Source: Lingula anatina
Lineage: Eukaryota; Animalia; Brachiopoda
Assembly (NCBI GenBank): GCA_051362555.1
Contig: CM120649.1
Coordinates: 7,688,001 to 7,752,000 of the forward strand
Direction of reading: 5' to 3'
DNA: 64,000 bases
Shown: one piece after another, positions 5,131 to 42,863 of the stretch
Layout of the letters: each line of letters starts with the position of its first letter
Numbering within the stretch: position 1 is the first letter of the stretch
The notes under the pieces: model-generated
Told to the model about the DNA's origin: nothing
The model's input: the letters and a program-made list of their open reading frames with translations, nothing else
The model's database searches: none
Program-made: the position numbers and the translations under genes

Positions 5131-5330
5131 ATTGCCTTTATATCGTTGTCTCATACAGAAATAAAAATAGAACGGTTTTAGAAATGGTGTCATAAAAAGT
5201 GGATTACCGTTTAAGACACTTTGAAGTATTTGTTAAATGGTGAAATCAGTATACGTCCTGATAATCTCAAGATATGCTACGGAAAAAGGGAAAATCAGAT
5301 TATTGAGCAGAACTGTCTTCTTCTTTTGCT

Positions 5331-8300
5331 CTAATGACACTTTTTGGCTAAATCTTCCATAATATTGACTGTCCTTATGGTAGCGGGGTCTTTGGGACTA
5401 AGTATCTCCTCTCTCAGTGCAAGACATTTTTTGTGATAATCAAGTGACTCTTTATACTCGCCCATGTCATGCAGTGTGTTCCCGATGTTGTAGTAGGAGC
5501 CGGCAGTATCGGGGTGTTTGGGACCAAGTGTCTCCTCTCTCAGTGCAAGACATTTTTTGTGATAATCAAGTGACTCTTTATACTCGCCCATGGCATGCAG
5601 TGTGATACCGATGTTGTTGTAGGAGCTGGCGGTATCGGGGTGTTTGGGACCAAGTGTCTCCTCTCTCAGTGCAAGACATTTTTTGTGATAATCAAGTGAC
5701 TCTTTATACTCGCCCATGGCATGCAGTGTGATACCGATGTTGTTGTAGGAGCTGGCGGTATCGGGGTGTTTGGGACCAAGTATCTCCTCTCTCAGTGCAA
5801 GACATTTTTTGCAATAATCAAGTGACTCTTTATACTCGCCCATGGCATGCAGTGTGATACCGATGTTGATGTAGGAGCTGGCAGTATCAGGGTGTTTGGG
5901 ACCAAGTGTCTCCTCTCTCAGTGCAAGACATTTTTTGTGATAATCAAGTGACTCTTTACACTCACCCATTTTCTGCAGTGTGTTCCCGATGTTGGTGTAG
6001 GAGCTGGCGGTATCGGGGTGTTTGGGACCAAGTGTCTCCTCTTTCAGTGCAAGACATTTTTTGTGATAATCAAGTGACTCTTTATACTCGCCCATGGCAT
6101 GCAGTGTGATACCGATGTTGGTGTAGGAGCTGGCGGTATCGGGGTGTTTGGGACCAAGTGTCTCCTCTCTCAGTGCAAGACATTTTTTGTGATAATCAAG
6201 TGACTTTTTAAACTCACCCATGGCCTGCAGTACATTACCGATGTTGTTGTAGGAGTTGGCGGTATCAGGGTGCTCGAGACCAAGTATCTCCTCTGTCAAT
6301 GCAAGACATTTTTTGTGATAATAAAGTGACTTTTTTAACTCACCCATGGCCTGCAGAACAGTACCGATATTGTTATAGGAGGCGGTGGTATCTGGATGCT
6401 TGAGACCAAGTATCTCCTCTCTCAGTGCAAGACATTTTTTGTGATAATCAAGTGACTTTTTAAACTCACCCATGGCCTGCAGTACAGCACCGACATTGTT
6501 GTAGGAGCTGGCGGTACCGGGGTGCTTGGGACCAAGTATCTCATCTTTCAATGCAAGACATTTTTTGTGATAATCAAGTGACTCTTTAAACTCACCCATG
6601 GCCAGCAGTACATTACCGATATTGTTGTAGGAGCTGGAGGTATCAGGGTGTTTAGGTCCACGTATCTCCTTTTTCAATGCAAGACTTTTTTTGTGATAGT
6701 CAAGTGACTTTCTATACTCACCCATGGCCCGCAGTACAATACCGATATTGTTGTAGGATGTGGCGGTATCAGGGTGCTTGAGACCAAGTATCTCCTCTCT
6801 CAATGCAAGACATTTTTTGAGATAATCAAGTGACTGTTTATACTCACCCATGGCCCACAATACAGTACCGATATTATCGTAGGAGGTGGCGGTATCAGGG
6901 TGCTTGAGACCAAGTATCTCCTCTCTCAATGCAAGACATTTTTTGTAATAATCAAGTGACTCTCTATACTCACCCATGGCCTGCAGTACATTACCGATAT
7001 TGTTGTAGGATGTGGCGGTATCGGGGTGCTTGGGACCAACTATTTTCTCTCTCAATGCAAGACATTTTTTGAGATAATCAAGTGACTGTTTATACTCACC
7101 CATGGCCTGCAGTACAGTACCGATATTGTTGTAGGAGGCGGCGGTATCGGGGTGCTTGGGACCAACTATTTTCTCTCTCAATGCAAGACATTTTTTGAGA
7201 TAATCAAGTGACTGTTTATACTCACCCATGGCCCGCAATACAGTACCGATATTGTCGTAGGAGGCGGCGGTATTGGGGTGCTTGGGACCAAGTATCTCCT
7301 CTCTCAATGCAAGACATTTTTTGTGATAATCAAGTGACTCTTTATACTGACCCATGGCCTGCAGTATATTACCCATATTGTTGTAGGAGGTTGCAGTATC
7401 GGGGTGCTTGGGACCAACTATTTCCTCTTTCAATGCAAGACTTTTTTTGTGATAATCAAGTGTCTCTTTATACTGACCCATGACCTGCAGTACAGCACCG
7501 ATATTGTTGTAGGAGTTGGCGATATCGGGGTGCTTGGGACCAAGTATCTCCTCTCTCAATGAAAGACATTTTTTGTGATAATCAAGTGACTCATTATACT
7601 TACCCATGGCCTGCAGTACATTACCGATATTGTCGTAGGAGTTGGCGGTATCGGGGTGCTTGGGATCAAGTATCTCCTCTTTCAATGCAAGACATTTTTT
7701 GTGATAATCAAGTGACTTTTTAAACTCACCCATGGCCTGCAGTACATTACCGATATTGTCGTAGAGGCCGGCGGTATCGGGGTGTTTGGGGCCAAGTATC
7801 TCCTCTTTCAGTGCAAGACTTTTTATGAGATAATCAAGTGACTCGTTAAACTCACCTATTTCGTGCAGTAAAATACCGATATTGTTGTAGGAACTGGCGA
7901 CATCGGGGTGTTTGGGACCTAGAATTTTAACCTTTTCATGTGACACCGATTTGTAAATATGTAAAGCATCCTTGTAGAGACAAATGCGACAAAAAGTCTC
8001 TGCAATCATTGCTAATTTATCTACACTTTCCAATCTTTCAGATGCATCTTGAGCTTCTATACTTTTAGTTAATAAAGCAGCAGTTTGTTTGATATGTGGT
8101 AACATCAAGGATAAATGATTTGCATCGGTGGCATTAAAATACTCCATTTTAAACCCTTTGAGAGTTTCTATATAATGACTGCAAAAAGCATTTTGGATAT
8201 CAAAAATATAATCGCCATATTCCTGGGCATTGTATTCTGCATATTCCCTTAGTAAAGGGTGGACATCATAGATGTTACTATCTGTACTAATGAGCGATTT

Positions 8301-19365: not shown

Positions 19366-22340
19366 CTAAACAATTGAACAAAATGGTACACGATCTCTAT
19401 GATAATATTTTACCAAAAATTCAATAACACTGATTGTTCTGACAGTATCATGGTGTTTGGGACCAAGGACCTCCTCTGTCACTGCAAGGCATTTATTGTA
19501 ATAATCAAGTGCCTCTTTATATTTACCCATATACTATACAGTGCATGGCCAATGTTGTTGTAGGAGTCTGCTGTATTAGGGTGTTTATGACCGAGTATCA
19601 CCTTTCTTAATGCAAGACTTTTATTGTGATAAACAAGTGACTCTTTATACTCACCCATGTCTTGCAGCACAAGACCTATATTATTGTAAGAACTGGCGGT
19701 ATCGGGGTGTTTGGGACCAAGTATCTCCTCTCTCAATGCAAGACATTTTTTGTGATAATCAAGTGCCTTTTTATAATAGCCCAAGGCCCGCAGAACATTA
19801 CCGATATTATTGTAAGAGCTGGCGGTATCGGGGTGTTTGGGACCAAGTATCTCCTCTCTCAATGCAAGACATTTTTTGTGATAATCAAGTGCCTTTTTAT
19901 AATAGCCCAAGGCCTGCAGTACAATTCCGATATTGTTGTAGGAGCTGGCGGTATCGGGGTGTTTGGGACCAAGTATCTCCTCTCTCAATGCAAGGCATTT
20001 TTTGCAATAATCAAGTGACTCTTTATACTCACCCATGGCCAGCAGTACACTACCGATATTGTTGTAGAAGGCAGCGGTATCAGGGTGCTTGAGACCAAGT
20101 ATCTCCTCTCTCAATGCAAGACATTTTTTGTGATAATCAAGTGACTTTTCTAACTCACCCATGGCCTGCAGTACATTACCGATATTGTCGTAGGAGACGG
20201 CGGTATCGGGGTGTTTGGGGCCAAGTATCTCCTCTCTCCATGCAAGGCATTTTTTGTAATAATCAAGTGACTCTTTATACTTACCCATGGCCTGAAGTAT
20301 ATTACCCATATTGTTGTAGGAGGTTGCAGTATCGGGGTGCTTGGGACCAAGTATCTCCTCTGTCAATGCAAGACATTTTTTGTGATAATCAAGTGACTCT
20401 TTATACTGACCCATGGCCTGCAGTATATTACCCATATTGTTGTAGGAGGTTGCAGTATCGGGGTGCTTGGGACCAACTGTTTCCTCTTTCAATGCAAGAC
20501 TTTTTTTGTGATAATCAAGTGACTCATTATACTTACCCATGGCCTGCAGCACATTACCGATATTGTTGCAGGAGTTGGCGATATCGGGGTGCTTGGGATC
20601 AAGAATCTCCTCTTTCAATGCAAGACATTTTTTGTGATAATCAAGTGACTTTTTAAACTCACCCATGGCCTGCAGTACATTACCGATATTGTCGTAGGAG
20701 CCGGCGGTATCGGGGTGTTTGGGGCCAAGTATCTCCTCTCTCAATGCAAGACTTTTTATGAGATAATCAAGTGACTCGTTAAACTCACCTATTTCGTGCA
20801 GAAAAATACCGATATTGTTGTAGGAACTGGCGACATCGGGGTGTTTGGTACCTAGAATTTTAACCTGTTCATGTGACACCGATTTGTAAATATGTAAAGC
20901 ATCCTTGTAGAGACAAATGCCATAAAAAGTCTCTGCAATCATTGCTAATTTATCTACACTTTCCAATCTTTCAGATGCATCTTGAGCTTCTATACTTTTA
21001 GTTAATAAAGCAGCAGTTTGTTTGATATGTGGTAACATCACGGATAAATGATTTGCATCGGTAGCATTAAAATACTCCATTTTAAAGCCTTTGAGAGTTT
21101 CTATATAATGACTGCAAAAAGCATTTTGGATATCAAAAATATAATTGTCATATTCCTGGGCATTGTATTCTGCATATTCCCTTAGTAAGGGGTGGACATC
21201 ATAGATGTTACTATCTGTACTAATGAGCGATTTATTGACAAGGTCTAGGATATGTTCACAATGATTTTGATCTAACCCTAAAATAACAGAGACTTCTTCC
21301 AGGTTAAAAGCAACAGGGAATATATGTAGTGCAACAAACACCTTTCTCGCCTCCGTTTTTAATGTTTTATAAGAAATTTCAAAGCAAGTTTTGATTTCTT
21401 CTGGCATGCTGGGAATGGAAAGAGTGGGTAGCATCTTCTGAGTTTTAAATGTCTCTAATACTGCTTCTGTTTGTTTTTTGTCAAGCAGTGCAGCTAGCAA
21501 TTTTAATGCAAGGGGGTTATAGCCGCACATTTCTGCCATTTCATCTAAGTTCGCTAACTCGCTGTCGGTGGGACTGGTTGATTTTCGTTCCCATAGGACG
21601 TCACGCGAGGAGCTTTTATCAAGTTTATCAATGTCTAACACAACTATGTTATGTGTTGTGAAATCAAACCTTTCACGACTGGCGCATAACAAACTGATAT
21701 GTTTTGTTGAATCCATTACATCCTTCAAAAAATCACTAAACTCCTTCCTATTTGAACTTAAAAAAGACTCGTTATTATCTAGGATAAATAGGGTATCAGT
21801 AGTCAAACTAGACAAAGTCTGTTTGAATATGTTTTGGTAATCAGAGTATAAGTCTTTCAAATGACGTGTTGGGTGATAATGGTGGACAAGCGATAACTTG
21901 ACAGAATTAAGATCTGTCACTTGTTTCATATCAATGTACAGCACGTTTTGCATGCTTTGTCCGACCTTAACTGCTATACTGGTCTTACCGATACCCCCCA
22001 TCCCGGTCAGGAGAATGAGGGGAACTTTATCTCTGATATGTTGGAGTATTGTGGTAATGATGCCATCACGACCCTTCAGATCTGTGTTTGTTCTAGGTAA
22101 CATCGTGGAGAGCAGCTGACAAGGGGTTTCTGAAAAGGTTTCTGAACATAAAAATCTAAAAACAGGAAACTGTTAACACATTTTTCACCTTGTGGTGGCC
22201 ATATTTAACACTTTTATATATGAAAATATACAGCTGGAGTGTCAGAATCTTTTAACATTAGAATGTTATAAGAATATGGAATCATTATCTCTGCCATTGT
22301 TTTTGCCTGTGCTTTTATAAATGTGACTCAACGGTGTGTG

Positions 22341-29897: not shown

Positions 29898-31700
29898 CCC
29901 CACCCCACCCCCGGGCCCATACTTATTTAATCCCAAGGTTGGAAAGTACTGTAGGTAGTCTGGCTCGGGAGAAATGCCACTATCTCCACATCTGGTTTCT
30001 ATCAGTTTTCTTCAGAGTTTGGGACAAATATATAAAGCTCCTCAGGTTGGGAAATCAGGAGGGGGTGGGGGTGGGGTAAAAAATTGTTGACAGGCGTGTC
30101 TTCTCAATATGGAAACTTCTAATTTTGGTAATTTCATTTTAAACATTTACAAACATAATGAATTCTCTTTTTCGTTTTAATGTAATTTTTCACACATTTC
30201 TGTAATTATCGCCTGAATTTAAATACTAATGCGAAATGCCACACTTTGATTTCCTAGAATAACGAGAGAAAGAGAGAGACGAAGAGAGAGATAGAGAGCC
30301 GAAGAGAGAGAGAGCGAGAGAGGGGAGTTTAAGGGCCTTTTAAATTGTACATGATCCTGCGCCCCCTCTCCCTTTGTTGGGAAAATTACGGCTTCTCAGA
30401 CCAGGGAATCTTTTGCTTTCCTCCTTTTTTTTCGTTTAACTTTTACATATTAAAGTGAAAACGTTTCCTTTTCATATAAATGTAATTCTTCACACATTTC
30501 TTTCAATGGCCCGAACTAGAGGGGCTTGTTATATATTCGGACTACACTCACGTCGGGCTCTCAGAAGTGTCCATGGACGTCCGTAGAAAATTTTTCAGGG
30601 GGGGGGGGTCAAAGTCACTATTCTATATCCCCTTACCCTGTGATGGTCCCCATGAAGGAATAGTTTTTCAAATAAATAGATTTTTCATCATTTTCGCCAC
30701 ATCAAGATCATAAGCGACATAAAAGATTCCACTGTTGTCGGATTTCTGCAGCTGCTGGTATTTTATCTTTTATGTCAAACAAAGTACTAGAACCATATGG
30801 CACCTTGCATGTGCAGGTTATATATAAACACAAATGTACACGAAGATACGGCCAATAGGATATGCAAGAACAATTTGGCGAGAGTTTGCACAGAGAAATG
30901 TCCTAACTCTGATATTGTCAGAGAGGGCTCCGTCAGTTAAAATCTTTTAAGAGATTTTAACAAAAAATCAAGCTCTTAGGGAAAAAAAAACCTAGACTAA
31001 CTTTGAAATATATATAATATTATTATGATAACAGAGAAAAGAAATGCGTGTGCAAGGTAATGTAAAAAGCAACGCTGTCAAATATTGGATAAAACTAAAG
31101 ATAAGTTTATTATACATCTCTTGGACTGTCATTGGCTATGTGTACATTTCTCCAAGTGAATATTTTCATATCGATATACATATTAATTGTATAAATTTTA
31201 CGTATTATTCTCAGCATCTTTAATAATGTTAATGTAATACACACACTGTTACCATGGATCCCAAATGGATGCTGTAAATCAACCAATGAGATATGTAGTC
31301 ACATCTGAATTTTCCCAATATGCAACACTAATTGCCCTGGAAGTTAGTAACACTTCCACTAATTGGTTGAGCTACTGCATTAACAACTAATCAAATAAGC
31401 AAGCACTTGAACACTTAAGACAACCGTTTTCCCCAACTTTCATCTGGAAATAAAGCTACGGCACATGTTCTGATTATGCTAGATAACTTTTACGACAAAC
31501 AAGTAACATTTACATGGTTTTCTTTAAGAAAACTTTTCAATCACCAGAACAGAAATGTCAAAATTTCATCGAAATTAACAATAGAGAAGAATAATCCAAA
31601 GCCTTATTTTCTATTACCTACAGTTTTCCCATTAGTTGTCCAATTCCCACAATACCGGTAGAATAATATCTAACTGGCTGTTATTTTACTGAAGTAATTC

Positions 31701-32044
31701 TGTGACGATGTAGTGTGTTAGATGAGATCATTTTATATTGCTACCGGTAGATGTCTCTGTAAGTAAAGTGTTGTCCGGTGTGCAAGTTTGAATCTCTCCC
31801 GTGATTGGTAACCTAAAGGTAAAACTGTTCACTGTATAGTTGGTTCTGATTGGTAAACGTGTACTATCTGAACTTGTATATAAGGTGTAACGTGAAATAA
31901 ATCGCCCTCTTTGGCCTCTTTGCTCTTAGCGGCTGTCTTTTGCTCTTCTCTTGAAGCTTTTTGGCTTTGTGTTTAACTCTGAGATACCAGTAAGTACATT
32001 GTTATTTGTACCTTCATAAGGCACTCGGCCGCGAAGGCGTAACA
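31701..32044 (+). repeat. 5' LTR
   Basis: TGTGACG...CGTAACA; ATTGG boxes, TATATAA at 31877, AATAAA at 31896, GTAAGT at 31990. Confidence 0.97.
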
Positions 32045-32046
32045 AT

Positions 32047-32064
32047 TGGCGCAGTCGACAGGAT
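32047..32064 (+). promoter_or_regulatory. Primer-binding site, complementary to a tRNA-Ser 3' end
   Basis: TGGCGCAGTCGACAGGAT; the reverse complement ATCCTGTCGACTGCGCCA resembles eukaryotic tRNA-Ser 3' ends. Confidence 0.8.
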
Positions 32065-32981
32065 AGAGTTTGTGTAGCTTACGACAGGATAGAGTTTGTG
32101 TTGCTTATTAATTGAAAGGATACAATTTGTGTAGCATATGTTGTTAAATTGACAGAATTCAATTTGTGTAGCTAACGTTGTCAGTTTACGGGATAGAATT
32201 TGTGTAGCTTATGTAGTTAGCAGATATAATTAGTAGTTATTAGTGATATTGGAATTTTTGAAAAGCTTTGTGTATGGCTGAGTGAGAGTTGGAAAGATAG
32301 TGACACGTGTTAGTCGGGACTTGTTGCAAGACGCGAACTAGTCGGAACATATTGCAGTGATATTTCATTTTTATTGTTGTTTGATACTCGCGGCAATTTA
32401 GTAAATATTGTCAAAGTAGCATTCATTTTAGTACTTTAGAGATATTTTGTATTAATTTTCTGTTGTGATACTACAATTGCAGAGACATTGTGAACCACGT
32501 GTAGTGAGTAGTAGTCGGACAGACCACGTGTAATTACAGGCCCGTGCGCACAGAGCCTTATGTTGTAATTAGAATACAGAACATAATTTAGTGAGTTTAT
32601 TTACAAAGAAAAGCATTTATTTAAAATAAAGGTTTCAAATTTGTGTTTTTCACTGACTTGCTGAATGAAGGAGTGAGTGTGAATTGTTTATTGTATATTT
32701 TTATCAATATTGCAATAGCATATATTGATAGAGTACTATTCTACCTTGTTCGTCTGTGTTGAAAGTGTTTCATCATAGGTGTACATGTGAGTAGGTTGAA
32801 TAGTGTGAGAAATTTGTTTGTATTTACTGTGAAGTTTAGTAGTGGCTTTTTTGCTGAAACTTTCTTCAAACAGTAAAGTGTGGTAGTGGTGAAAGTATTT
32901 TATTGTGTAGTTTTTGTGGCACAGCTGCATTGCTATTATCAATAAAATTGTGTAATAGGTTGTGGGAAACTAGAAGTGAAA

Positions 32982-34946
32982 ATGGCGTCGGGTAGTGTAG
33001 AAAGTAGTGTTGTGTTGAATGTGCAGACAGCGTCTGAGACAGAATTGAAAAATTTGAAAGGAATTGGTCCAGTGAAAGCTCATAGATTGGTGTCTTTGAG
33101 AAATCAAAAAGGAAAATTGCTGTTGAGTGATTTGGAAGAAATTACTGGTATTAGTGTAGCAGAATGGCAGAAATGGGAAAAGAAGGGTAATGTGATTCTG
33201 GGTGTAATGGAAGAAAAAGATGAAGGTTCAAAAGTTGGAGATGAGAAAAAGGAAGAGAGTGTGAATTGGGAAGAAAAGTATAGAAAGTTGATGGAGCGAG
33301 TGAAGGTACAAAATGAAATGATATCAAATCTTCGAGATGAGGTTGAAGAAGCGGGAGAAAAGATGGAATTTTTATCAAGTGAATTGGAAATAAATGATGC
33401 TAAAGTGAAAAAGTTGGAAAATGAAAAGAGTGAATGGGAAAAAGAGAAATATGCTTTGGAAAATGAAAAGTATAGTTTGGAAAATGAGAAGTGTGATTTG
33501 AAAAATGAAAATGATATGTTGAAAGAAAGAAATGTGAAAATTCAGAGTGAGTTGGGAAAAACTAAACAAGTGTTGATGAAAAAAGAAATGGAAATGGAAG
33601 AAGAGTGTAGAGAGTATTCCACAAAAGAAATGATGTTACATGCTCAGGTTGAAACACAGAATGAATTGTTGAGAAAACGAGTAGAAAGTTTGCAGAAGTG
33701 TGAAATTGAAAAAATGGATTTGAAATTGCAATTGGATGAAATGACAGCACGTCATAATCATTTGCAAACTCAGTATGAAAGAATGCATTTACAGCATGAT
33801 TTAGAAAAAATCCCAAGACCAACTCCTAGAGATATTAAAAGTAGTAGACCCACACCTGCACCTAGAAGTAGTAAAAAGAAAAGTTTGGAAACCCCTGTGA
33901 AAAAACCAATACTGAAACTAGCAGAGAGTGAAAGTGATAGCGAAAGTGAAAGTGAATCTGAATGTGAACAGAAAAGAGTTCCTTTAGTTGAAAGAGAAAA
34001 AGGACCTGTTCATAAAATGCCTAGTTTTAGTGGGAATGGAAGAGAAAACTGGGAAGCTTTTGTATTTAAGTTTGAAGGAATGGCAGAAAGATATGGATGG
34101 AATGATAAAAGGAAAACTAGCAGAATGATTGAATGTTTGGAAGATAGAGCTCTTGAGTATGCGGTGGAGTTTGGAAATTGCAAATATAAACGTTTGAAAG
34201 AAGTGATGTCAAAACGTTTTAGTATGAAAGAGTCTGCTTCATCTGCACGCAGAGCACTTCAATCAATGAGGCAGGGTGAAAGTGAATCTTTGCAAGATTT
34301 TGCTCATCGTGTGTTCATGGCATCTAGAGAGGGATATACAGAAGGTGGTGAAGGAATAGCTGTGGATTCATTTTTAAGAGGGTGTCGTGACAAAGAATCT
34401 GCAAAATTGGCTATGGATAAAGAGCCTAAAGATTTATTTGAAGCGTTAGAGTTTGTGAAAGTTGCAAACAATAACTTCAAAGCAGTGTATGGTACAGGTG
34501 GAAGAAATGTGCATATTAGACAAGTTGGAATGTCTGATCAGAGTGTGGAGAATGGAAGTGGAAATCAATTACTCTACAACATGCAAAGAACCATGTCTGC
34601 AATGTGTGATCAGATGAAAAGAATGAATGACGCATGGGTGTCACCGTCGAATTCTCAGAGAAATTCTGGTAGAATGGTAAAGTCGCCCCAGAATGGAAAC
34701 ATAAATCAAAGTAGAGGGGGTCCACCACAATGTTTTAAATGTGGAGAAAGAGGTCATGTTCAAAGGGATTGTAAGAATGAAAATGTAGAACATCCACCTA
34801 ATCCCAATGTTAGTAAAAATGCCAGCCCAAGTTCTATTTTGATTTGTAATAAATGTGGACAAAGAGGTCACATTCAAACAAATTGCCCTCAAAATAGAGA
34901 AATGCCAAAGAATCCTCCTCCCGGTGCAAGAAATTCGGTAAACTAG
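32982..34946 (+). CDS. gag: Gag with N-terminal helix-hairpin-helix, coiled coil, capsid-like region and two CCHC knuckles
   Basis: LNVQTASETELKNLKGIGPVKA (HhH); FSGNGRENWEAF..F...W; RQGESESLQDFAHRV; CFKCGERGHVQRDC and CNKCGQRGHIQTNC. Confidence 0.92.
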   Translation: MASGSVESSVVLNVQTASETELKNLKGIGPVKAHRLVSLRNQKGKLLLSDLEEITGISVAEWQKWEKKGNVILGVMEEKDEGSKVGDEKKEESVNWEEKYRKLMERVKVQNEMISNLRDEVEEAGEKMEFLSSELEINDAKVKKLENEKSEWEKEKYALENEKYSLENEKCDLKNENDMLKERNVKIQSELGKTKQVLMKKEMEMEEECREYSTKEMMLHAQVETQNELLRKRVESLQKCEIEKMDLKLQLDEMTARHNHLQTQYERMHLQHDLEKIPRPTPRDIKSSRPTPAPRSSKKKSLETPVKKPILKLAESESDSESESESECEQKRVPLVEREKGPVHKMPSFSGNGRENWEAFVFKFEGMAERYGWNDKRKTSRMIECLEDRALEYAVEFGNCKYKRLKEVMSKRFSMKESASSARRALQSMRQGESESLQDFAHRVFMASREGYTEGGEGIAVDSFLRGCRDKESAKLAMDKEPKDLFEALEFVKVANNNFKAVYGTGGRNVHIRQVGMSDQSVENGSGNQLLYNMQRTMSAMCDQMKRMNDAWVSPSNSQRNSGRMVKSPQNGNINQSRGGPPQCFKCGERGHVQRDCKNENVEHPPNPNVSKNASPSSILICNKCGQRGHIQTNCPQNREMPKNPPPGARNSVN

Positions 34947-34957
34947 AACGGGACGAA

Positions 34958-37900
34958 TTGACCGACCGGATTTCGGATCCCTTACTTCATGTTGAAGGTC
35001 GGATTATGGATAGTGGAAATGTGAAAATGATGAATGTTGGAGAGTTAGTAGGAGAAAATTTTGTGATTCCTGTTAGTGTAGGTGGTGTGAAAACATTAGC
35101 AGTTGTGGATACGGCAGCTCAATTTACTATCGTAAATAAAAGATTTTATAGTAAATTGCAGGGTGTGCCTGAGTTTTGTGAGACTCTGAAATTAATGCTT
35201 GCTGGAAAAAATGCATTTATGATGGGTCATAGAGTAGAAAATTTGAGTATTGAGATAGATGGGATAGAATATAAGGAAAATGTGTATGTTGCAGATTTGC
35301 AAGAAGGAATTGATATGTTGTTGGGATTGAAGTTTTTGAAGGAGAGAAATTGTGTGGTGAATTTAGTTGATCAAACATTGATCATTGGAGAAAAATGTGT
35401 GCAGGGAAGCATAGAAGTTGAAGGTGACTCTGATTTGAGTAAAGTGAATGGTGAGACAGAAGCTAAAAGTGATGAGAAATGTATTGATGAAATGGAGAGA
35501 GAAGTTGAACATTGTGAAAATATGGTGAGAACGAAAAAGAGAATAGTAGTTCCTCCATTGACGGTGATGAAAATTTCTGTTTGTGCAGATTATGAGTTAG
35601 AGAAAAAGAAAGAGTATGTGATAGAACCTTGTGTTGATAGACAAGTGTTGGTATCTTGTGCATTAGTTAAAGGTGATGATGTTGTTCCTATAGAGATAGT
35701 GAATGATGGAGAAAGAAATGCTGTTTTGAAAGCAGGTAGTGTGTTAGGTGTTATTAAGGAAGTTGAGACAGTTGATTCTGAAGTGAGATGTGAAGATGTA
35801 GATGGAAAAGCTAGGGTGTCTGCTGTGAATAAAGTTGAAATGAAGTTGAATATAGATGAAAATGTGGATAAAGAAGTGATGAGAAGTTTGAAAAGAGATT
35901 TGCCTGAACATTTGCAAGATTTATTTGAAAGATCAAGTGAGGAGCTTGATTCAAATGAAATGGTTGCATTGTGTGAAACTTTGAGAGATTATGAAGATGT
36001 ATTTGCAAAGCATGATCTTGATTTAGGGTGCATGAAAGGTGTTAAACATACTATTAACACTGGTAGTGCAGCTCCTGTGAAACAGAAATTGCGTAGAACT
36101 CCATTGGGAATGGAAGGAGAAGAGAGAAAGATGCTTGAAAAGTTGTTAGCTTCTGATGTTATTCAGCCATCAAATTCTGAATGGGCATCCCCACCAGTAT
36201 TGATAAGAAAGAAAGATGGAAGTGTTAGATGGTGTGTGGATTACAGGGAATTAAATAAGAAAACTATCAAAGATTCTTATCCTATTCCAAACATTGGTGA
36301 TTGTTTAGATTGTCTGGCTGGAAATCAGTTTTTGAGTTTGATTGATATGGCTCAAGGATATTTTCAAATTGAAATTGATGAGAAAGACAGAAATAAAACT
36401 GCTTTTATCACCAGGTATGGTCTGTATGAGCATAAGAGAATGGCTATGGGACTTACCAATTCTCCTGCAAGTTTTTCAAGAGCAATGCAGTTAGTATTGA
36501 GAGGTTTGACTTGGGAGAAAGTGTTAGTGTATCTGGATGATATCACAGTGTTGGGAAAGAATTTTGAAGATCATCTTAAGAATTTGAAAGAGGTTTTGGA
36601 GAGATTGCGTTCTTACAACTTGAAGTTAAAGCCTAAGAAATGTTTTCTTTTCCAAACAAAGTGTGAATTCTTAGGAAAGTCGATTAGTAGAGAAGGTGTT
36701 GGTATAACTGAGAGTAAGATTGATTGTGTTAGAAAGTGGCCAGTACCTACAAACAAAAAGGAAGTTGAAACATTCCTTGGTTTCATCAATTATCATAGAG
36801 ATCATATTCCTCAATTTGCTGAGAAAACTGCTTGTTTGTATGAGTTGACAGGGAATAAAAGTGTTTTCAATTGGTCAGATGAACATCAAATAGCATTTGA
36901 AAGTTTAAAACAAGAGTTAACAACTGCCCCTTGTTTAGCCTTTCCTTTGTCTGAAGGTGAATTTATACTTGATACAGATGCATCATATTCATGTATAGGA
37001 GCAGAACTTTCACAGATACAACATGGTGAAGAGAAGGTTATTGCTTATGGAAGTAAAATTATGTCACCTATACAGCGGCGTTATTGTACAACTAGAAAAG
37101 AGCTCTTGGCTGTTGTAAACTTCTGTAGACAATATAGACATTATTTGTTGGGAAGAAAGTTCAGAATCCGAACAGATCATCATAGTTTAGTGTGGTTGTT
37201 AGGATTTAAAAACCCAGATGGTCAGTTAGCAAGATGGTTAGAAGAATTATCTCAGTATAATTTTACCATTGAACATAGACCAGGAAAGAAGCATGGAAAT
37301 GCAGATGCATTATCAAGAATACCTTTAGTTATGAAAGTGTGTGATTGTTATAAAGTTGGAGTGAAATTGAGTGACTTACCCTGTGGAGGATGTCATTATT
37401 GTCAGAGAGTACATAAAAATTGGTCAAGGTTTGAGACTGATGTGAATGATGTAATTCCTCTGGGAAATAAGAAATCAGATGACAATGTAGTTGAATCGAA
37501 TGCAGTTGGTGATATGAAGAATGAAACAAATTGTGAGAAATTGAGTTCAGTTTTGATGTGTCAGAGGGCTGATACAAATGATAAAACTGACAAGAATGAA
37601 AGAGATGAATTATGCAATTGGTTGAAAGGATATGACTTGAAAAAATTGCAGAGAAAAGATGCAGATTTGAAAATAATCATAGGTTGGTTAGAGAATGGTG
37701 AACCTAAAGAATCAGAGTTGTATTTGTGTAGTATGGCAGTAAAAGGATTGTGGAATTGCAAAGAGCAATTGATTCTTTTGAATGATGTGTTATATTACAA
37801 ATGGGAAAAGAGAGAGGATAGAAATTTGTGTTTAATAGTACCAAAAGATTTGGTCAACGAAGTTTTATTTTTCTGTCATGATTCAAAAACAGCTGGTCAT

Positions 37901-38911
37901 TTTGCTTATGAGAAAACTTTGCAAAAACTCAAACAATCATTCAAGTGGCATGGAATGAATAGAGATTGTAAATTGTATGTAAGTTCATGTGAACTTTGCA
38001 ATAAAAACAAGCATAGTACTGTTCGACCAAAAGCCAAAATGAAATTACATCATGCAGGATTTCCTATGGAAAAGGTTCATTTAGATATACTTGGACCATT
38101 TACACAAAGTGAATTTGGAAATTCTTATATTTTGGTTATGATAGATCAGTTTACTAAGTGGATAGAATGTGTGGCATTGCCAAATCAGACAGCTGAATTA
38201 GTAGCAAAAGCATTTTTTGAAAAATTCATAGTTACTTTTGGTTGTCCACAAGAGATATATACAGATCAAGGTTCAAATTTTCAAAGTAGTCTATTTAGAA
38301 ATTTGTGTAGACTATTAGAAATCAAACAACTTAGAACAACTGGTTTTAGAGCAAGTGCTAATGGACAAGTTGAAAGATGTATGGGTATTATTACACAGAT
38401 GATTAGATGTAATGTAGAAGGGAATGTGAGATATTGGGATAGAGATTTACCTCAATTAGTTATGGCATTACATTCAACTGTGAATGCATCAACTGGATTT
38501 ACTCCTAACATGATGATGTTAGGGAGAGAAGTTTTTATGCCATTACACTTACTAACAGGTTGTGTGAATGAAAATTTGATACCATGTGATACTCATGAAT
38601 GGTTAAAAAACTTGAGTGAAAGCCTAAATAGATCGCATGAAATGGCTAGAGAAAAATTGAAATGTGTGCAGAAACGTCAAAAACAATTGTACGATGCAAA
38701 GTTGAGAGAGAATGAATATACTTGTGGTCAGAAAGTATATTTGAAGGATGAAAGTCATAAAAAGGGAGAAAGTAAGAAACTTAGACCCTTATATAGAGGA
38801 CCATATGAGGTTATCAAAGCATCCCCACCTCTCTATACAATAAAAGATAAAAAAGGAAAAATCCAAGTGGTACATCATGATAGATTGAGAAAATTTGTTG
38901 AAAGAGAGTGA
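34958..38911 (+). CDS. pol: Pol polyprotein (protease, RT, RNase H, integrase), -1 frame relative to gag
   Basis: AVVDTAAQ protease; WASPPVLIRKKDG and YLDD in RT; LDTDAS and TDHHSL in RNase H; HHCC (HDSKTAGH..CELC); DDE (HLDILG, TDQGSNF, NGQVER); YRGPYEV. Confidence 0.97.
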   Translation: MTDRISDPLLHVEGRIMDSGNVKMMNVGELVGENFVIPVSVGGVKTLAVVDTAAQFTIVNKRFYSKLQGVPEFCETLKLMLAGKNAFMMGHRVENLSIEIDGIEYKENVYVADLQEGIDMLLGLKFLKERNCVVNLVDQTLIIGEKCVQGSIEVEGDSDLSKVNGETEAKSDEKCIDEMEREVEHCENMVRTKKRIVVPPLTVMKISVCADYELEKKKEYVIEPCVDRQVLVSCALVKGDDVVPIEIVNDGERNAVLKAGSVLGVIKEVETVDSEVRCEDVDGKARVSAVNKVEMKLNIDENVDKEVMRSLKRDLPEHLQDLFERSSEELDSNEMVALCETLRDYEDVFAKHDLDLGCMKGVKHTINTGSAAPVKQKLRRTPLGMEGEERKMLEKLLASDVIQPSNSEWASPPVLIRKKDGSVRWCVDYRELNKKTIKDSYPIPNIGDCLDCLAGNQFLSLIDMAQGYFQIEIDEKDRNKTAFITRYGLYEHKRMAMGLTNSPASFSRAMQLVLRGLTWEKVLVYLDDITVLGKNFEDHLKNLKEVLERLRSYNLKLKPKKCFLFQTKCEFLGKSISREGVGITESKIDCVRKWPVPTNKKEVETFLGFINYHRDHIPQFAEKTACLYELTGNKSVFNWSDEHQIAFESLKQELTTAPCLAFPLSEGEFILDTDASYSCIGAELSQIQHGEEKVIAYGSKIMSPIQRRYCTTRKELLAVVNFCRQYRHYLLGRKFRIRTDHHSLVWLLGFKNPDGQLARWLEELSQYNFTIEHRPGKKHGNADALSRIPLVMKVCDCYKVGVKLSDLPCGGCHYCQRVHKNWSRFETDVNDVIPLGNKKSDDNVVESNAVGDMKNETNCEKLSSVLMCQRADTNDKTDKNERDELCNWLKGYDLKKLQRKDADLKIIIGWLENGEPKESELYLCSMAVKGLWNCKEQLILLNDVLYYKWEKREDRNLCLIVPKDLVNEVLFFCHDSKTAGHFAYEKTLQKLKQSFKWHGMNRDCKLYVSSCELCNKNKHSTVRPKAKMKLHHAGFPMEKVHLDILGPFTQSEFGNSYILVMIDQFTKWIECVALPNQTAELVAKAFFEKFIVTFGCPQEIYTDQGSNFQSSLFRNLCRLLEIKQLRTTGFRASANGQVERCMGIITQMIRCNVEGNVRYWDRDLPQLVMALHSTVNASTGFTPNMMMLGREVFMPLHLLTGCVNENLIPCDTHEWLKNLSESLNRSHEMAREKLKCVQKRQKQLYDAKLRENEYTCGQKVYLKDESHKKGESKKLRPLYRGPYEVIKASPPLYTIKDKKGKIQVVHHDRLRKFVERE

Positions 38912-39157
38912 TTTTCAATTGAATGAACCACAATTGGTGGAACCAATTGTAAAAAGATCAAGATTAGGTAGACAAATTAAAATGCCATCTCATTTAAGAG
39001 ATTTTGCGTTAGAATGATCATATTGATGTATATTTAGTTTATTAGTCAAGGTATAGTTGTATATAAATACTTCCTTAATTTTCGGCAGTGCTGAAATAAA
39101 AGGAATTTAATTTAATTTATTTATTTGTATTTTTTTTTTTTTTTTTTTATTTAGAAC

Positions 39158-39448
39158 ATGGATGAATCAAACATTATGCACATCTGGGAAGAAGAGTTTC
39201 AATGGTGCACAGATTGGGTTGAATCTCCAGAACGTTTATATATACTCTCAATCAGAAACATTGAAATAAAAAGTTCAAAACAAGCCAAAATAATCATCCA
39301 TTTAGGAAAAATATGGAGAGAGAGATGTTTGTTAGAGACGGGTTATGATTGGTTCATGGACCACGAGAAAGAAATAAACAAAGAGTTATCTAAAGAAGAT
39401 TGTATTGATATTATTTGTTATCTCAGAGACAAACTCTATCAGTATTAA
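39158..39448 (+). CDS. Accessory ORF3 of the Gypsy element (96 aa, unknown function)
   Basis: Intact ORF between pol and the 3' LTR, with ATG 3 nt after a strong polypyrimidine/AG acceptor (39154). Confidence 0.5.
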   Translation: MDESNIMHIWEEEFQWCTDWVESPERLYILSIRNIEIKSSKQAKIIIHLGKIWRERCLLETGYDWFMDHEKEINKELSKEDCIDIICYLRDKLYQY

Positions 39449-39662
39449 AATATTAGAAAAAATAAACAAGATAATAAAGATATATTTGATGAAGTATATT
39501 ATAGTTTGTACTTCCTATTATATTTCAGGTAATTTGATCAAAACAACAGTCCAAGTTGGTATAGGTTTTCTAAATATTTGTTTGAATTTTATTGTTGAGC
39601 ATGTTGCATTGAGCACTGCATGAATAGATTGATAGCTACTTTTGTGTTTTTTGGATTATGGT

Positions 39663-39696
<34 letters not shown>

Positions 39697-40045
39697 ACCT
39701 AACACGGTTACACTGTTCAAACTAATATGTTGCAGTTTAGCATGTGTTTTGCATGTAATCGGATTGGAGGTTGTCAAGGTAATAATTATTTTCTTTTTGC
39801 ACATTTTGATGATGGTATTTTACTTGGGGATTTGGTATAAAAGTAATATTTGTACATAGTTAATGCGGCAATGCTGTGTTACTATATTAGTAATGTAATA
39901 CTATGTTAGTAATTAATGAAATACTGTTTATGCTGTAATACTATGTTAATAATGTAAAATTATGTTAATATTCATTTGAAAGAAAAGATCATTATCATGT
40001 ATGTTCATTCAAGAAAATAAACCATTGTATAAGTTTATTTCAGAT

Positions 40046-40714
40046 ATGGATGATCTAGACATGCTAGATGAAGCTTGTTTTGTCCCGGATTATAATGACA
40101 CTGATTTGGTGGAAGATCCTACTGTCCTAATTGGTGAAGAGGGGGAGGAAGTTACCCACTCAAAGTGCAGAGGGGAGAAACGGAGGAGAGAAGTCCAGTG
40201 TGGTTTGTGTCTGGTGTCCAGTGCTGACCTAAGTAGACATCTTGGACGTCATGTGAAATCTGTTCATTTGCCATGGTATATGACTCCAGGATTGGTGTGC
40301 TGGTATTGCAGATCGATGGAGAAGGACAATTCGCTTTTACGTAAATGTCATGGTGATGTTCATTCGTGTGGAACTGGTGAATTCGAGGAAAAACTGTGGA
40401 TCCAATTGGTGAATGGATTTTTACATTTCCTCATCTTAACATTAAATATGAGAAATATATGGGAGCTGATGGACTATGTGAAAAGTGAAGGACTAATAAT
40501 GTTGCCAGATAACTGTTCCAATGAGGACATTAACTTTGTGAAAATATACATTCATGGAAATGGTATAGAGCATAAGACTGAGATTCTAAATTCTTGGTTG
40601 ACTTTGTTTCACTGGAGAACTTTGTATCATCTGTTACAAAAACTTTCATCGGAGGATCGTGAACTCAGTAGTCATTGGTATCGGAGGATGGAATTTACTT
40701 TGCTACATGGATGA
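40046..40714 (+). CDS. Accessory ORF4 of the Gypsy element (Cys/His-rich, putative zinc-binding)
   Basis: CGLC..RHVKSVHLPWY..P..VCWYC..CH..H; ATG at 40046 lies 2 nt after acceptor tttatttcag (40043). Confidence 0.6.
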   Translation: MDDLDMLDEACFVPDYNDTDLVEDPTVLIGEEGEEVTHSKCRGEKRRREVQCGLCLVSSADLSRHLGRHVKSVHLPWYMTPGLVCWYCRSMEKDNSLLRKCHGDVHSCGTGEFEEKLWIQLVNGFLHFLILTLNMRNIWELMDYVKSEGLIMLPDNCSNEDINFVKIYIHGNGIEHKTEILNSWLTLFHWRTLYHLLQKLSSEDRELSSHWYRRMEFTLLHG

Positions 40715-41092
40715 AAAATGAACTATAATATGATTTAACATTTCACATTGACATTGTTATCATTACTAATGTTGTTTTGAGCAACTTTGAGTTAAAATCA
40801 CTTTGTTTGCTTTTAAAGTTGATTTAAAGTGATAATGGATTTAAAACTTTGTTTTGCATTCCTAAGGATGAACATTTATGCTGAGAGATGGACTTAATTG
40901 ACTTTGCTTGTGTTAAAGTTAAATGTTGAATCTTGGTATAACAAGAATGAACTTAATTGCATTATTTGCTTATTTTAAATGTAAAGTAAGATTTCAGTTG
41001 TTGAATTATAGTAATTGTTAGTTTAACAATTTAAAGTAATGGTTTATATTGTAATAATAGGGGGGAGTTTTGTTCGTCAAAAGGGGGGAGAG

Positions 41093-41436
41093 TGTGACGA
41101 TGTAGTGTGTTAGATGAGATCATTTTATATTGCTACCGGTAGATGTCTCTGTAAGTAAAGTGTTGTCCGGTGTGCAAGTTTGAATCTCTCCCGTGATTGG
41201 TAACCTAAAGGTAAAACTGTTCACTGTATAGTTGGTTCTGATTGGTAAACGTGTACTATCTGAACTTGTATATAAGGTGTAACGTGAAATAAATCGCCCT
41301 CTTTGGCCTCTTTGCTCTTAGCGGCTGTCTTTTGCTCTTCTCTTGAAGCTTTTTGGCTTTGTGTTTAACTCTGAGATACCAGTAAGTACATTGTTATTTG
41401 TACCTTCATAAGGCACTCGGCCGCGAAGGCGTAACA
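41093..41436 (+). repeat. 3' LTR
   Basis: Same sequence as the 5' LTR, preceded by the PPT and followed by TSD ATTC. Confidence 0.97.
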
Positions 41437-42863
41437 ATTCAAGTGTGTTGTCAAGGTCAAAAATACATTCTAGCAAGGTTTCCATGGCATGACTGGACCT
41501 TTCACATTGCAATACATTCTTAGTACAGCAGCATTTATTTAGTCAAAACAATAGCTTTCACCTTGTGACTAACACATATCCGGCACATCAAACATTACCT
41601 CTATATTGGCAAACTAGCATAAGAGCTGGCACGTGTAATGAGCAGTGCCACAATGAAATAAGAGTCCAACTGGTATTCAAAATGGCAGCAGTACTGGTTT
41701 ACCTTGAACACATTTCATCAAACAGAATCCATCTACATCAAATATTAAATTGAAAATATGAATCAATGGGGTACTTGAAGTGTGTACGACAATCTTATAT
41801 TCATTAATTCACCTTCTTCTCTCAAGCTATGAGGGAAATGAATCTTCACGAACAGGTTTCTTTACCAGGTGACACAACACAATGTTGACAAGACGGGAAC
41901 TGTTCATTGTCACAGCTCACACACAAAACAGCAACTTTCACAAATCACTTGAAGGAAATAATAAGTAAACATTGGTGTGCTATTCATTAAAAAGGCAAAA
42001 AAAATGAATAAGCAAATACAAAATAAAAAAGACTTAGTTCCTCTTAACATTAATTCTTACAGAAATACTTCAAAAACCTTACTCCGAAGCCTACCATAAC
42101 TTATCTTGTTTACATCTACCAGACTACTTTCTTTTTCCTTGAGATGAACCTTTTAACACCACGTAAAACTGCCTAGCAACTGTACAGTAGTTTCTATGGC
42201 GATTCATCCAGTAGCTATGGAAATTCAATTCAATCTCCTATGTACATTTTCTTTCATCAGTTATTTATAAGATACAAGACTATGTTCTCTATCAAATCTA
42301 TATTCCCTGCCCCACGTAAAGCAAGCTATCTAATTCACCTTTCTCTCTCCTTACTTGTGGAATCATATAACACAGAAAACTTTACAATTGGGTCTACAAG
42401 AGCCATAAGATTAGTTAACTTGATACTTAATACAGTTATGATAAAACTGTACACTTCATATTACCATACACATAACTGTTTAGTTTTAAATTATTGGGAA
42501 GAATAAGCTATCACTTTTCATCCTGGAAGAAATTATTTCTGTGCCCTCTTCTGCTATTGGTCCATACATGTAGCTTGTCCTCTACCTCTGCCACTACAAT
42601 TGTATGTTCTACCGAGCGCAGCTAATCACCACAATTTCCTCTTCCCATGATTCCACAGTACGCAAATTATCATGTCCACCCTGATTGGCCATAAAATATT
42701 CATTAATTTCTTTACACCTTTACACCCCTTCTCAAGCATGCTCTTTATTTATCACTGTCCAGTGCTTCTCAATCTGTCCTTTCTTCCCTTCATCCTTCCC
42801 TCCATCCTGATGACTACATAATGGCTTTAAAAGTGTCTAATGCATCGCACTCCAATCTCCGCA

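What the first reader, a model, noticed from the sequence alone, without database searches (positions are those of the whole stretch)
39120..40714. Two non-env accessory ORFs apparently made from spliced subgenomic RNAs using an LTR donor
Seen: a GTAAGT donor in the LTR (31990) downstream of the TATA box. ORF3 and ORF4 each start within 2-3 nt of a polypyrimidine-AG acceptor ((t)n-atttag|aacATG at 39154; tttatttcag|atATG at 40043). Neither has an obvious signal peptide or env features. ORF4 has an acidic N-terminus and CxxC..RH...HLPWY..CWYC..H motifs. Established: errantivirus and retrovirus env genes are expressed by this kind of splicing. Inference: a complex retrotransposon with accessory, possibly anti-silencing or regulatory, proteins. 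From memory only (unverified), similar HLPW..CWxC segments precede TatD-like domains in mollusc retroelement proteins; no TatD is seen here.
Basis: partly seen in the sequence, partly recalled or inferred. Interest (0 to 1): 0.7.

Follow-up and report, generated by a model that had tools for sequence, protein, structure and literature searches.

The report
Retrotransposon accessory gene without its nuclease
A recently inserted jumping gene, likely in a brachiopod, carries in the slot where a viral coat gene would sit a conserved gene for a predicted zinc-finger protein whose relatives are often fused to a DNA-cutting enzyme but which here stands alone, likely made from its own spliced message and likely acting as a nucleic-acid-binding helper; a second small extra reading frame has no relative found.

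Summary
ORF4 (222 aa) is a real gene: 185 HMMER hits; 69 of 148 scanned carry a C-terminal TatD nuclease, so ORF4 is that family's N-terminal module (acidic F-x-P-D-Y start, two C2H2-like fingers, helical domain) without the nuclease. All 3 of 3 related loci place the gene after a Gypsy pol, behind an acceptor-like site; one also lacks TatD. The family's N-terminus fixes the start 2 nt after the acceptor. Splicing is only partly shown: no LTR-to-ORF3/ORF4 joint was listed in 8 shallowly covered RNA runs, but 3 reads in one run break exactly at the ORF4 acceptor, with an upstream piece unlike this copy's LTR exon. ORF3 (96 aa) is longer than chance gives and has the better acceptor, yet has no relative found and little RNA cover. 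Function is inferred only. This scan had noted TatD-carrying Gypsy elements on other DNA (e1-7881919); my paper searches found none in print. Verdict: new variant of non-env ORF3 retrotransposons.

The parts
31701..32044 (+). 5' LTR (344 bp, TG...CA)
   Evidence: 0 mismatches to the 3' copy over the compared stretch (blastn 100% over 344); 4-bp target duplication at 31697-31700 and 41437-41440
31877..31901 (+). TATA-like box (31877) and AATAAA (31896); implies a short R and puts the donor in U5 (inferred)
31990..31995 (+). Candidate splice donor GTAAGT; no ATG in 31885-31989, six ATGs in the leader behind it
   Evidence: use not shown
32047..32064 (+). Primer-binding site (tRNA-Ser type, label recalled, from no call)
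   Evidence: sequence
32982..34946 (+). gag, 654 aa: N-terminal helix-hairpin-helix, coiled region, two CCHC knuckles
34898..38911 (+). pol (PR-RT-RH-IN), open from 34898 in the -1 frame to gag; looks frameshifted close to its 3' end
   Evidence: an integrase-tail-like stretch lies out of frame up to 39018, like the tail of the L001 pol
39120..39154 (+). T-run and acceptor in front of ORF3
   Evidence: rank 2 of 743; lies in a zone the read tool skips
39158..39448 (+). ORF3, 96 aa, no relative found
39509..39528 (+). Third acceptor-like site, followed 91 nt later by a 79-codon hydrophobic frame (39620-39859) that runs through an A-run; doubtful
   Evidence: rank 4 of 743
40034..40043 (+). Acceptor in front of ORF4
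   Evidence: rank 50 of 743; 3 reads of run X5 stop matching exactly before 40044
40046..40714 (+). ORF4, 222 aa: acidic F-x-P-D-Y start, two C2H2-like fingers (C52 C55 H69 H74; C85 C88 H102), helical domain; TatD-less member of a module+TatD family
41060..41092 (+). Polypurine tract
41093..41436 (+). 3' LTR

Best explanation
This is a recently inserted Gypsy LTR retrotransposon whose env slot holds ORF4, a nuclease-less member of a family of 'acidic motif + predicted twin zinc finger + helical domain (+ TatD)' accessory genes, likely translated from a spliced subgenomic RNA that enters at 40044 and likely acting as a nucleic-acid-binding adaptor for the element. Shown: element anatomy, family membership, start codon, absence of TatD here and in one relative, gene position after pol in 3 of 3 related loci. 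Thinly shown: use of the 40043 acceptor. Inferred: the donor is the U5 GTAAGT at 31990 (it would give an ATG-free first exon of about 80 nt, make the ORF's ATG the first one, and lie behind the poly(A) signal in the 3' LTR); in fused relatives the module aims the TatD nuclease at the element's own nucleic acids (cDNA ends, RNA-DNA hybrids, by-products), while alone it binds the same nucleic acids and docks a host partner through the F-x-P-D-Y motif. ORF3 is most likely a younger, family-specific accessory ORF with its own acceptor (about even odds that it is translated).
For: Family: 185 hits at E<=0.001, best full-length 3e-17; TatD_DNase in 40 of 70 and 29 of 78; ORF4 keeps C52, C55, H69, H74, P76, C85, C88, W118 (each 90% or more in 139 rows). 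Start: 39 of 152 stored relatives have the motif in their first 40 residues, 31 of these at position 6-13; ORF4 has it at 12 from 40046; RefSeq model XP_013408821.1 also begins at this Met. Fold: mean pLDDT 84.5; the family profile hits CTCF fingers over positions 33-99, E 1e-5. Context: 3 of 3 loci have a related pol directly upstream (38-48% identity) and an acceptor-like site within 60 nt of the ATG (ranks 2 of 282, 8 of 144, 4 of 139); L001 has no TatD before a polypurine tract. RNA: in X5 sense depth is 2.6-5.1 over 39865-41092 against 0.6-1.2 over gag and 0-0.3 over ORF3, 5 sense reads cross into the LTR, and 3 reads break exactly at 40044. Third ORFs of LTR elements are typically made from spliced messages (PMC5408684, PMC12992720; passages). 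TatD enzymes are 3'-5' exonucleases and AP endonucleases (PMC10085689 abstract).
Against: No joint from 31989 to either acceptor was listed in 8 of 8 runs laid (2008 reads laid; 6-30% of each run read; listing needs 3 reads). The 14 loose letters of the X5 reads do not resemble this copy's LTR exon end, so their donor is unidentified (host exon, sister LTR, or a rearranged genomic copy). In X1 and X3 most ORF4 cover is antisense, i.e. read-through. Listed ORF4 differences in reads are 9 synonymous of 20 against 34% expected, no clear purifying signal, versus 8 of 11 in gag/pol; a frame-breaking indel at 40276 is in 3 of 5 X3 reads. A short protein can be a broken fused gene: L002 has an in-frame stop just ahead of an intact-looking TatD start. 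L002 and L003 are one family, so context rests on two independent families. Strong acceptor-like sites also occur with no long ORF behind them (L001 3383; window 35588). ORF3 has no hit in L001-L003 and near-zero cover. No binding or activity was tested.
Confidence: 0.6

Rival explanations
1. ORF4 is the left-over half of a module+TatD gene that lost its nuclease and is now drifting; the acceptor is inherited, and the protein does little.
For: 69 of 148 relatives are fused; ORF4 sits on a long branch (1.39-1.51); read differences show no clear purifying signal; a broken fused copy gives a protein of the same size (L002).
Against: All core Cys/His/Trp residues are kept; no TatD remnant in the 378 nt before the LTR; the frame stays open over 222 codons; L001 has the same TatD-less layout; reads reach from ORF4's 3' region into the LTR in sister copies.
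Confidence: 0.2
2. ORF4 is a real gene but is expressed from another donor (end of pol or the leader) or from an internal promoter, not from the U5 donor; ORF3 is a chance or captured frame.
For: The only junction-like reads have an upstream piece unlike this LTR; six further GT(A/G)AG sites lie in the leader; insect env exons are spliced from donors upstream of or within gag (PMC12992720 passages); ORF3 has no relative and little cover.
Against: GTAAGT at 31990 is the only perfect GTAAGT in R/U5/leader and leaves an ATG-free first exon; in X8/X9 a sister LTR diverges after 31911 but matches again from 31993, inside the donor (5 reads); ORF3 length and acceptor are each unlikely by chance.
Confidence: 0.3
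3. ORF4 is a DNA-binding trans-activator of the LTR (acidic activation region plus two C2H2-like fingers), working like a foamy-virus Tas or a Tax-type regulator.
For: Acidic N-terminus (net charge -12), CTCF-like fingers, complex-retrovirus-like layout.
Against: In about half of the family the same module is fused to a nuclease, which fits targeting better than activation; no homology to any viral regulator.
Confidence: 0.15
4. The two ORFs are env-like or cell-fusion proteins (env or sORF2/FAST type).
For: They occupy the env slot.
Against: No hydrophobic segment of transmembrane grade in ORF3 or ORF4; ORF4 belongs to a soluble zinc-finger-type family.
Confidence: 0.03

Closest known systems
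Non-env ORF3s of bdelloid rotifer Juno/Vesta LTR retrotransposons (DEDDy exonuclease, GDSL esterase; PMC5408684, abstract and passages seen)
   Same: Gypsy-type element with a non-env gene after pol; a 3'-5' nuclease as cargo in the family; ORF3s said to be made from spliced messages
   Different: Other nuclease family (TatD, behind an unnamed zinc-finger-type module); this copy has the module without the nuclease, plus a second small ORF
Insect errantivirus env genes (PMC12992720, passages seen)
   Same: Third gene behind an acceptor after pol, translated from a spliced subgenomic RNA
   Different: No signal peptide, fusion peptide or transmembrane segment; the proposed donor is in the LTR and the first exon non-coding, whereas env donors lie upstream of or within gag
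MDG1-group sORF1/sORF2 of Drosophila (10.1101/2025.03.14.642691, passages seen)
   Same: Two small non-env accessory ORFs in one Gypsy element, one nuclear-type
   Different: sORFs lie upstream of gag and are expressed without splicing; sORF2 is a membrane protein; no sequence relation tested or seen
TatD-carrying sea-urchin Gypsy clade noted earlier by this scan (e1-7881919; AI note, only its summary seen)
   Same: Third gene of a Gypsy element encoding TatD; L002/L003 show this layout here
   Different: ORF4 lacks TatD; whether that note's protein carries the same N-terminal module could not be checked
Cellular TatD nucleases (YcfH, TATDN1/3; PMC10085689 abstract)
   Same: C-terminal half of the fused relatives (E 3e-45 to YcfH)
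   Different: Absent from this element; cellular enzymes in the PDB list match only the TatD half of the profile

Membership tests
Ty3/Gypsy (Metaviridae) LTR retrotransposon | Two LTRs with TG...CA ends, target duplication, PBS and PPT | tested here: met
Ty3/Gypsy (Metaviridae) LTR retrotransposon | gag, then pol in the order PR-RT-RH-IN | tested here: met
Ty3/Gypsy (Metaviridae) LTR retrotransposon | Placement in a named clade by RT phylogeny | not tested
   no named reference RT sequences were fetched
Errantivirus / env-carrying Gypsy | Third ORF with signal peptide, furin site and transmembrane anchor | tested here: not met
   best 19-residue hydropathy 0.42 and 1.46; no env family in Pfam
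Errantivirus / env-carrying Gypsy | Third ORF made from a spliced subgenomic RNA | tested here: inconclusive
   no LTR joint listed; 3 reads break at 40044
Module+TatD Gypsy accessory family (unnamed) | F-x-P-D-Y start and CxxC..H..HLPW..CWxC..H core | tested here: met
   (profile without ORF4 scores it at E 8e-46)
Module+TatD Gypsy accessory family (unnamed) | Gene lies after a Gypsy pol | tested here: met
   window and 3 of 3 loci
Module+TatD Gypsy accessory family (unnamed) | C-terminal TatD domain | tested here: not met
   no TatD signal in six frames of the window; so ORF4 is a relative without the nuclease, not a TatD
C2H2 zinc-finger proteins | CxxC...H...H ligand spacing above a curated cut-off | tested here: inconclusive
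   ligands conserved; Pfam zf-C2H2_11 only E 0.14, under cut-off; profile hits CTCF at E 1e-5; zinc binding untested
MDG1 sORF2 / FAST fusogens | Small protein upstream of gag with transmembrane and polybasic segments | tested here: not met
   ORF3 and ORF4 lie after pol and lack a transmembrane segment
Complex retrovirus-like expression (one donor, several acceptors) | Two or more accessory mRNAs from one 5' donor | tested here: inconclusive
   the ORF3 acceptor lies in a zone the tool skips

The most novel reading that the evidence does not exclude
An invertebrate Gypsy clade has evolved a complex-retrovirus-like programme: one U5 donor feeds two or three acceptors after pol, giving separate accessory proteins, among them a zinc-finger-type module of no matched fold that works without its TatD nuclease as a regulator or anti-silencing factor, and that hosts have also captured in tandem arrays behind B-box or ankyrin domains.
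Probability: 0.25. Interest if true: 0.75.

Novelty: new variant of a known kind. Interest (0 to 1): 0.52.

Why it matters
Accessory genes of animal Gypsy elements other than env are little studied. This one belongs to a large, unnamed family (185 clusters at 50% identity) that comes with or without a TatD nuclease, so the nuclease-less form isolates what the module itself does for the element. If both acceptors are fed from the LTR donor, multi-gene splicing of the complex-retrovirus type would have arisen in an invertebrate retrotransposon. Tandem copies of the module in long B-box and ankyrin proteins hint that hosts reuse it.

Tried and rejected
No whole genome is held, so sister copies could not be aligned and dN/dS was not computed. 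Word-index searches: none at near length, one Lingula model at longer length, none with the alignment because only 1310-3740-residue proteins were searched; ORF3 was therefore never run against the two large protein collections. Atlas: nothing usable for either ORF. Fold searches of the ORF4 model: no Foldseek match at E<=0.001 in PDB or viral library, best VIA Z 3.5; this shows neither a new nor a known fold. ORF3 model pLDDT 55.5, too poor to search; ORF3 has no Pfam or PDB sequence hit and one 15-residue PHROG hit at E 0.03. Locus scans: none with ORF4 alone in metagenomes, none with A3 in viral or prokaryote genomes. Independent losses of TatD: short forms scatter on a quick tree (13 changes, 3 forced; 66 fused and 18 short rows kept of 139), but the label includes broken copies and the test does not reject one clade for ORF4 plus the L001 group (p-AU 0.55, 28 rows); direction (loss or later gain of TatD) is open. 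ATG 40001 rejected as the start. Paper searches for TatD in LTR elements or for this layout found nothing relevant in their listings; Repbase notes, subscription journals and supplements were not seen.

Full report
Setting. The finding lies in the 3' part of a Gypsy LTR retrotransposon at 31701-41436: 344-bp LTRs without a mismatch, a 4-bp target duplication, primer-binding site and polypurine tract, gag with two CCHC knuckles and pol in the order PR-RT-RH-IN. RNA reads of the same species label join the two flanks without the element, so the insertion is recent and polymorphic. No genome is held. The host is likely the brachiopod Lingula or a relative: the only named hit of ORF4 is a Lingula anatina gene model that starts with ORF4 residues 1-51 at 84% identity; this is inference.

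Observation. The donor (31990), the two acceptors (39154, 40043) and the ATGs 3 and 2 nt behind them are as described. ORFs of these lengths are rare in shuffles of this AT-rich region (0.6% and 0 of 2000; 0.35% for 96 aa). On a crude score of my own the ORF3 acceptor ranks 2 and the ORF4 acceptor 50 of 743 AGs; high-ranking sites also occur inside pol and, in a relative, with no long ORF behind. Neither protein has a transmembrane-grade segment.

What ORF4 is. HMMER over 1.84 billion representatives gave 185 hits, 150 listed. I scanned 148 of the 150 with Pfam (P0003 and P0120 left out): 69 carry TatD_DNase C-terminal to the part that matches ORF4 (40 of 70; 29 of 78); most others are short and have no Pfam family, some certainly fragments; one is an ordinary C2H2 array. 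In an alignment of 139 rows C52, C55, H69, H74, P76, C85, C88 and W118 are 90% or more conserved and ORF4 has them all. The family starts with an acidic stretch and F-x-P-D-Y, at position 6-13 in 31 of the 39 stored relatives that show it (152 examined, three of them near-copies of one), and at 12 in ORF4 counted from 40046, so the true start is the ATG 2 nt behind the acceptor, not 40001. AlphaFold gives a confident model (pLDDT 84.5; loose N-terminus, small metal-site region, eight helices). The family profile matches CTCF fingers over positions 33-99 (E 1e-5) and TatD enzymes over 215-469; fold searches gave no clear match. A TatD profile finds nothing in six frames of the window.

Context of relatives. 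A metagenome scan returned three loci; in all three the gene follows a related Gypsy pol and has an acceptor-like site within 60 nt of its ATG. L002 and L003 (one family) continue into TatD; L001 ends after the module and reaches a polypurine tract and a TG about 490 nt later with no TatD signal, the same layout as the window. None has a match to ORF3. Trees could not settle whether TatD was lost once or often, or gained later (p-AU 0.55).

Splicing. Eight of nine offered RNA runs were laid, 6-30% of each read, 2008 reads in all. No joint from 31989 to 39155 or 40044 was listed. Depth is low, listing needs three reads, the ORF3 acceptor lies in a skipped zone (0 joints dropped in either call, 2 loose ends), and 28 loose-end rows were not shown. 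In favour: three X5 reads stop matching exactly before 40044; with nine listed loose-end rows in 38900-41092, a hit on that base by chance is about 0.4% (my arithmetic). In that run sense depth is 2.6-5.1 from ORF4 to the LTR against 0.6-1.2 over gag and 0-0.3 over ORF3, as a subgenomic ORF4 message would give. A sister LTR that diverges after 31911 matches again from 31993, within the donor, which hints that the donor is kept. The design fits: no ATG in 31885-31989, six in the leader that splicing would skip, and the donor's copy in the 3' LTR lies behind AATAAA. I put use of the ORF4 acceptor at about 0.75, the LTR as its donor at about 0.55, a translated ORF3 at about 0.5.

Selection. Read differences listed in ORF4 are 9 synonymous of 20 (34% expected for transitions), against 8 of 11 in gag/pol; the tables are cut to the 40 best rows, mix copies, and include decayed ones (an indel at 40276 in 3 of 5 X3 reads). 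This is no support for purifying selection at short range; the deep conservation of the core residues is the evidence for function.

ORF3. No Pfam, Atlas or PDB hit, one trivial PHROG hit, a low-confidence helical model, and the lowest RNA cover of the element (0-1.5 in the bins inside it, partly because reads are cut at the flanking T- and A-runs). It was not run against the two large protein collections, whose caps went to ORF4. It may be a young accessory gene or a captured frame.

Mechanism. Shown: a non-env gene family in the env slot of a Gypsy clade, with and without TatD. Inferred: spliced expression; the twin fingers bind nucleic acid and the acidic motif docks a partner; in fused forms this would aim a 3'-5' exonuclease/AP endonuclease (PMC10085689, abstract) at the element's cDNA ends, hybrids or by-products; alone it would act as adaptor, regulator or decoy. 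The anti-silencing role is a possibility without evidence here.

Known systems. Rotifer Juno/Vesta elements carry DEDDy or GDSL third ORFs, said to be expressed from spliced messages (PMC5408684, abstract and passages); insect env is spliced from donors upstream of or within gag (PMC12992720, passages); MDG1 elements have two small accessory ORFs upstream of gag, unspliced (10.1101/2025.03.14.642691, passages); the metazoan errantivirus survey gave no passage on such ORFs for the terms tried (PMC13524379, passages). Seven searches (listings only) showed no paper on TatD-carrying or module-only Gypsy elements; supplements and Repbase were not seen. This scan had noted TatD-carrying Gypsy elements in a sea urchin and J-domain/TatD-like ones in a flatworm; these were leads, and the TatD link was tested here independently.

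Verdict. Observation confirmed; interpretation partly supported. A new variant of the non-env third-ORF kind, interest 0.52; the multi-acceptor, complex-retrovirus-like reading remains open at about 0.25.

Noticed in passing
window 33006-33160 (gag residues 9-59): Gag begins with a helix-hairpin-helix motif (Pfam HHH_3, E 1.3e-6, above cut-off), followed by a long acidic coiled region: an unusual Gag start.
   Followed up: no
window 38900-39018: This copy's pol stops at 38911 while an integrase-tail-like stretch lies out of frame behind it, so the copy looks broken near the end of pol despite identical LTRs.
   Followed up: partly
window 39528 and 39620-39859: A third strong acceptor-like site, kept in diverged sister reads (X8), precedes a 79-codon hydrophobic frame with a lysine run from an A-run (chance about 1%); a one-base gap at 39804 in 5 of 9 X3 reads argues against coding.
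   Followed up: partly
window 31700/41437: The insertion is polymorphic: 31-60 reads in X1, X2 and X4 and 15 in X7 join the two flanks without the element, mostly on the opposite strand, so it sits in a host transcript.
   Followed up: partly
proteins P0005, P0010, P0015, P0016, P0023, P0051: Long proteins hold 2-6 tandem copies of the ORF4 module, two behind a B-box and two among ankyrin repeats; P0041 joins NADAR, the module and a partial TatD. Possible host reuse; context unknown.
   Followed up: partly
P0003 (XP_013408821.1) versus P0153 (XP_013422149.1): A Lingula anatina VWD-protein model starts with ORF4 residues 1-51 in place of the signal-peptide-like start of its near-identical partner model: a sister element seems to supply or be mis-modelled as its first exon.
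   Followed up: partly
L002 1459-1461: An in-frame stop separates the module from an intact-looking TatD start; L003 of the same family has no stop there.
   Followed up: partly
window 5250-8050 and 19420-20980: Two arrays of a 126-bp tandem repeat, about 85% alike.
   Followed up: no
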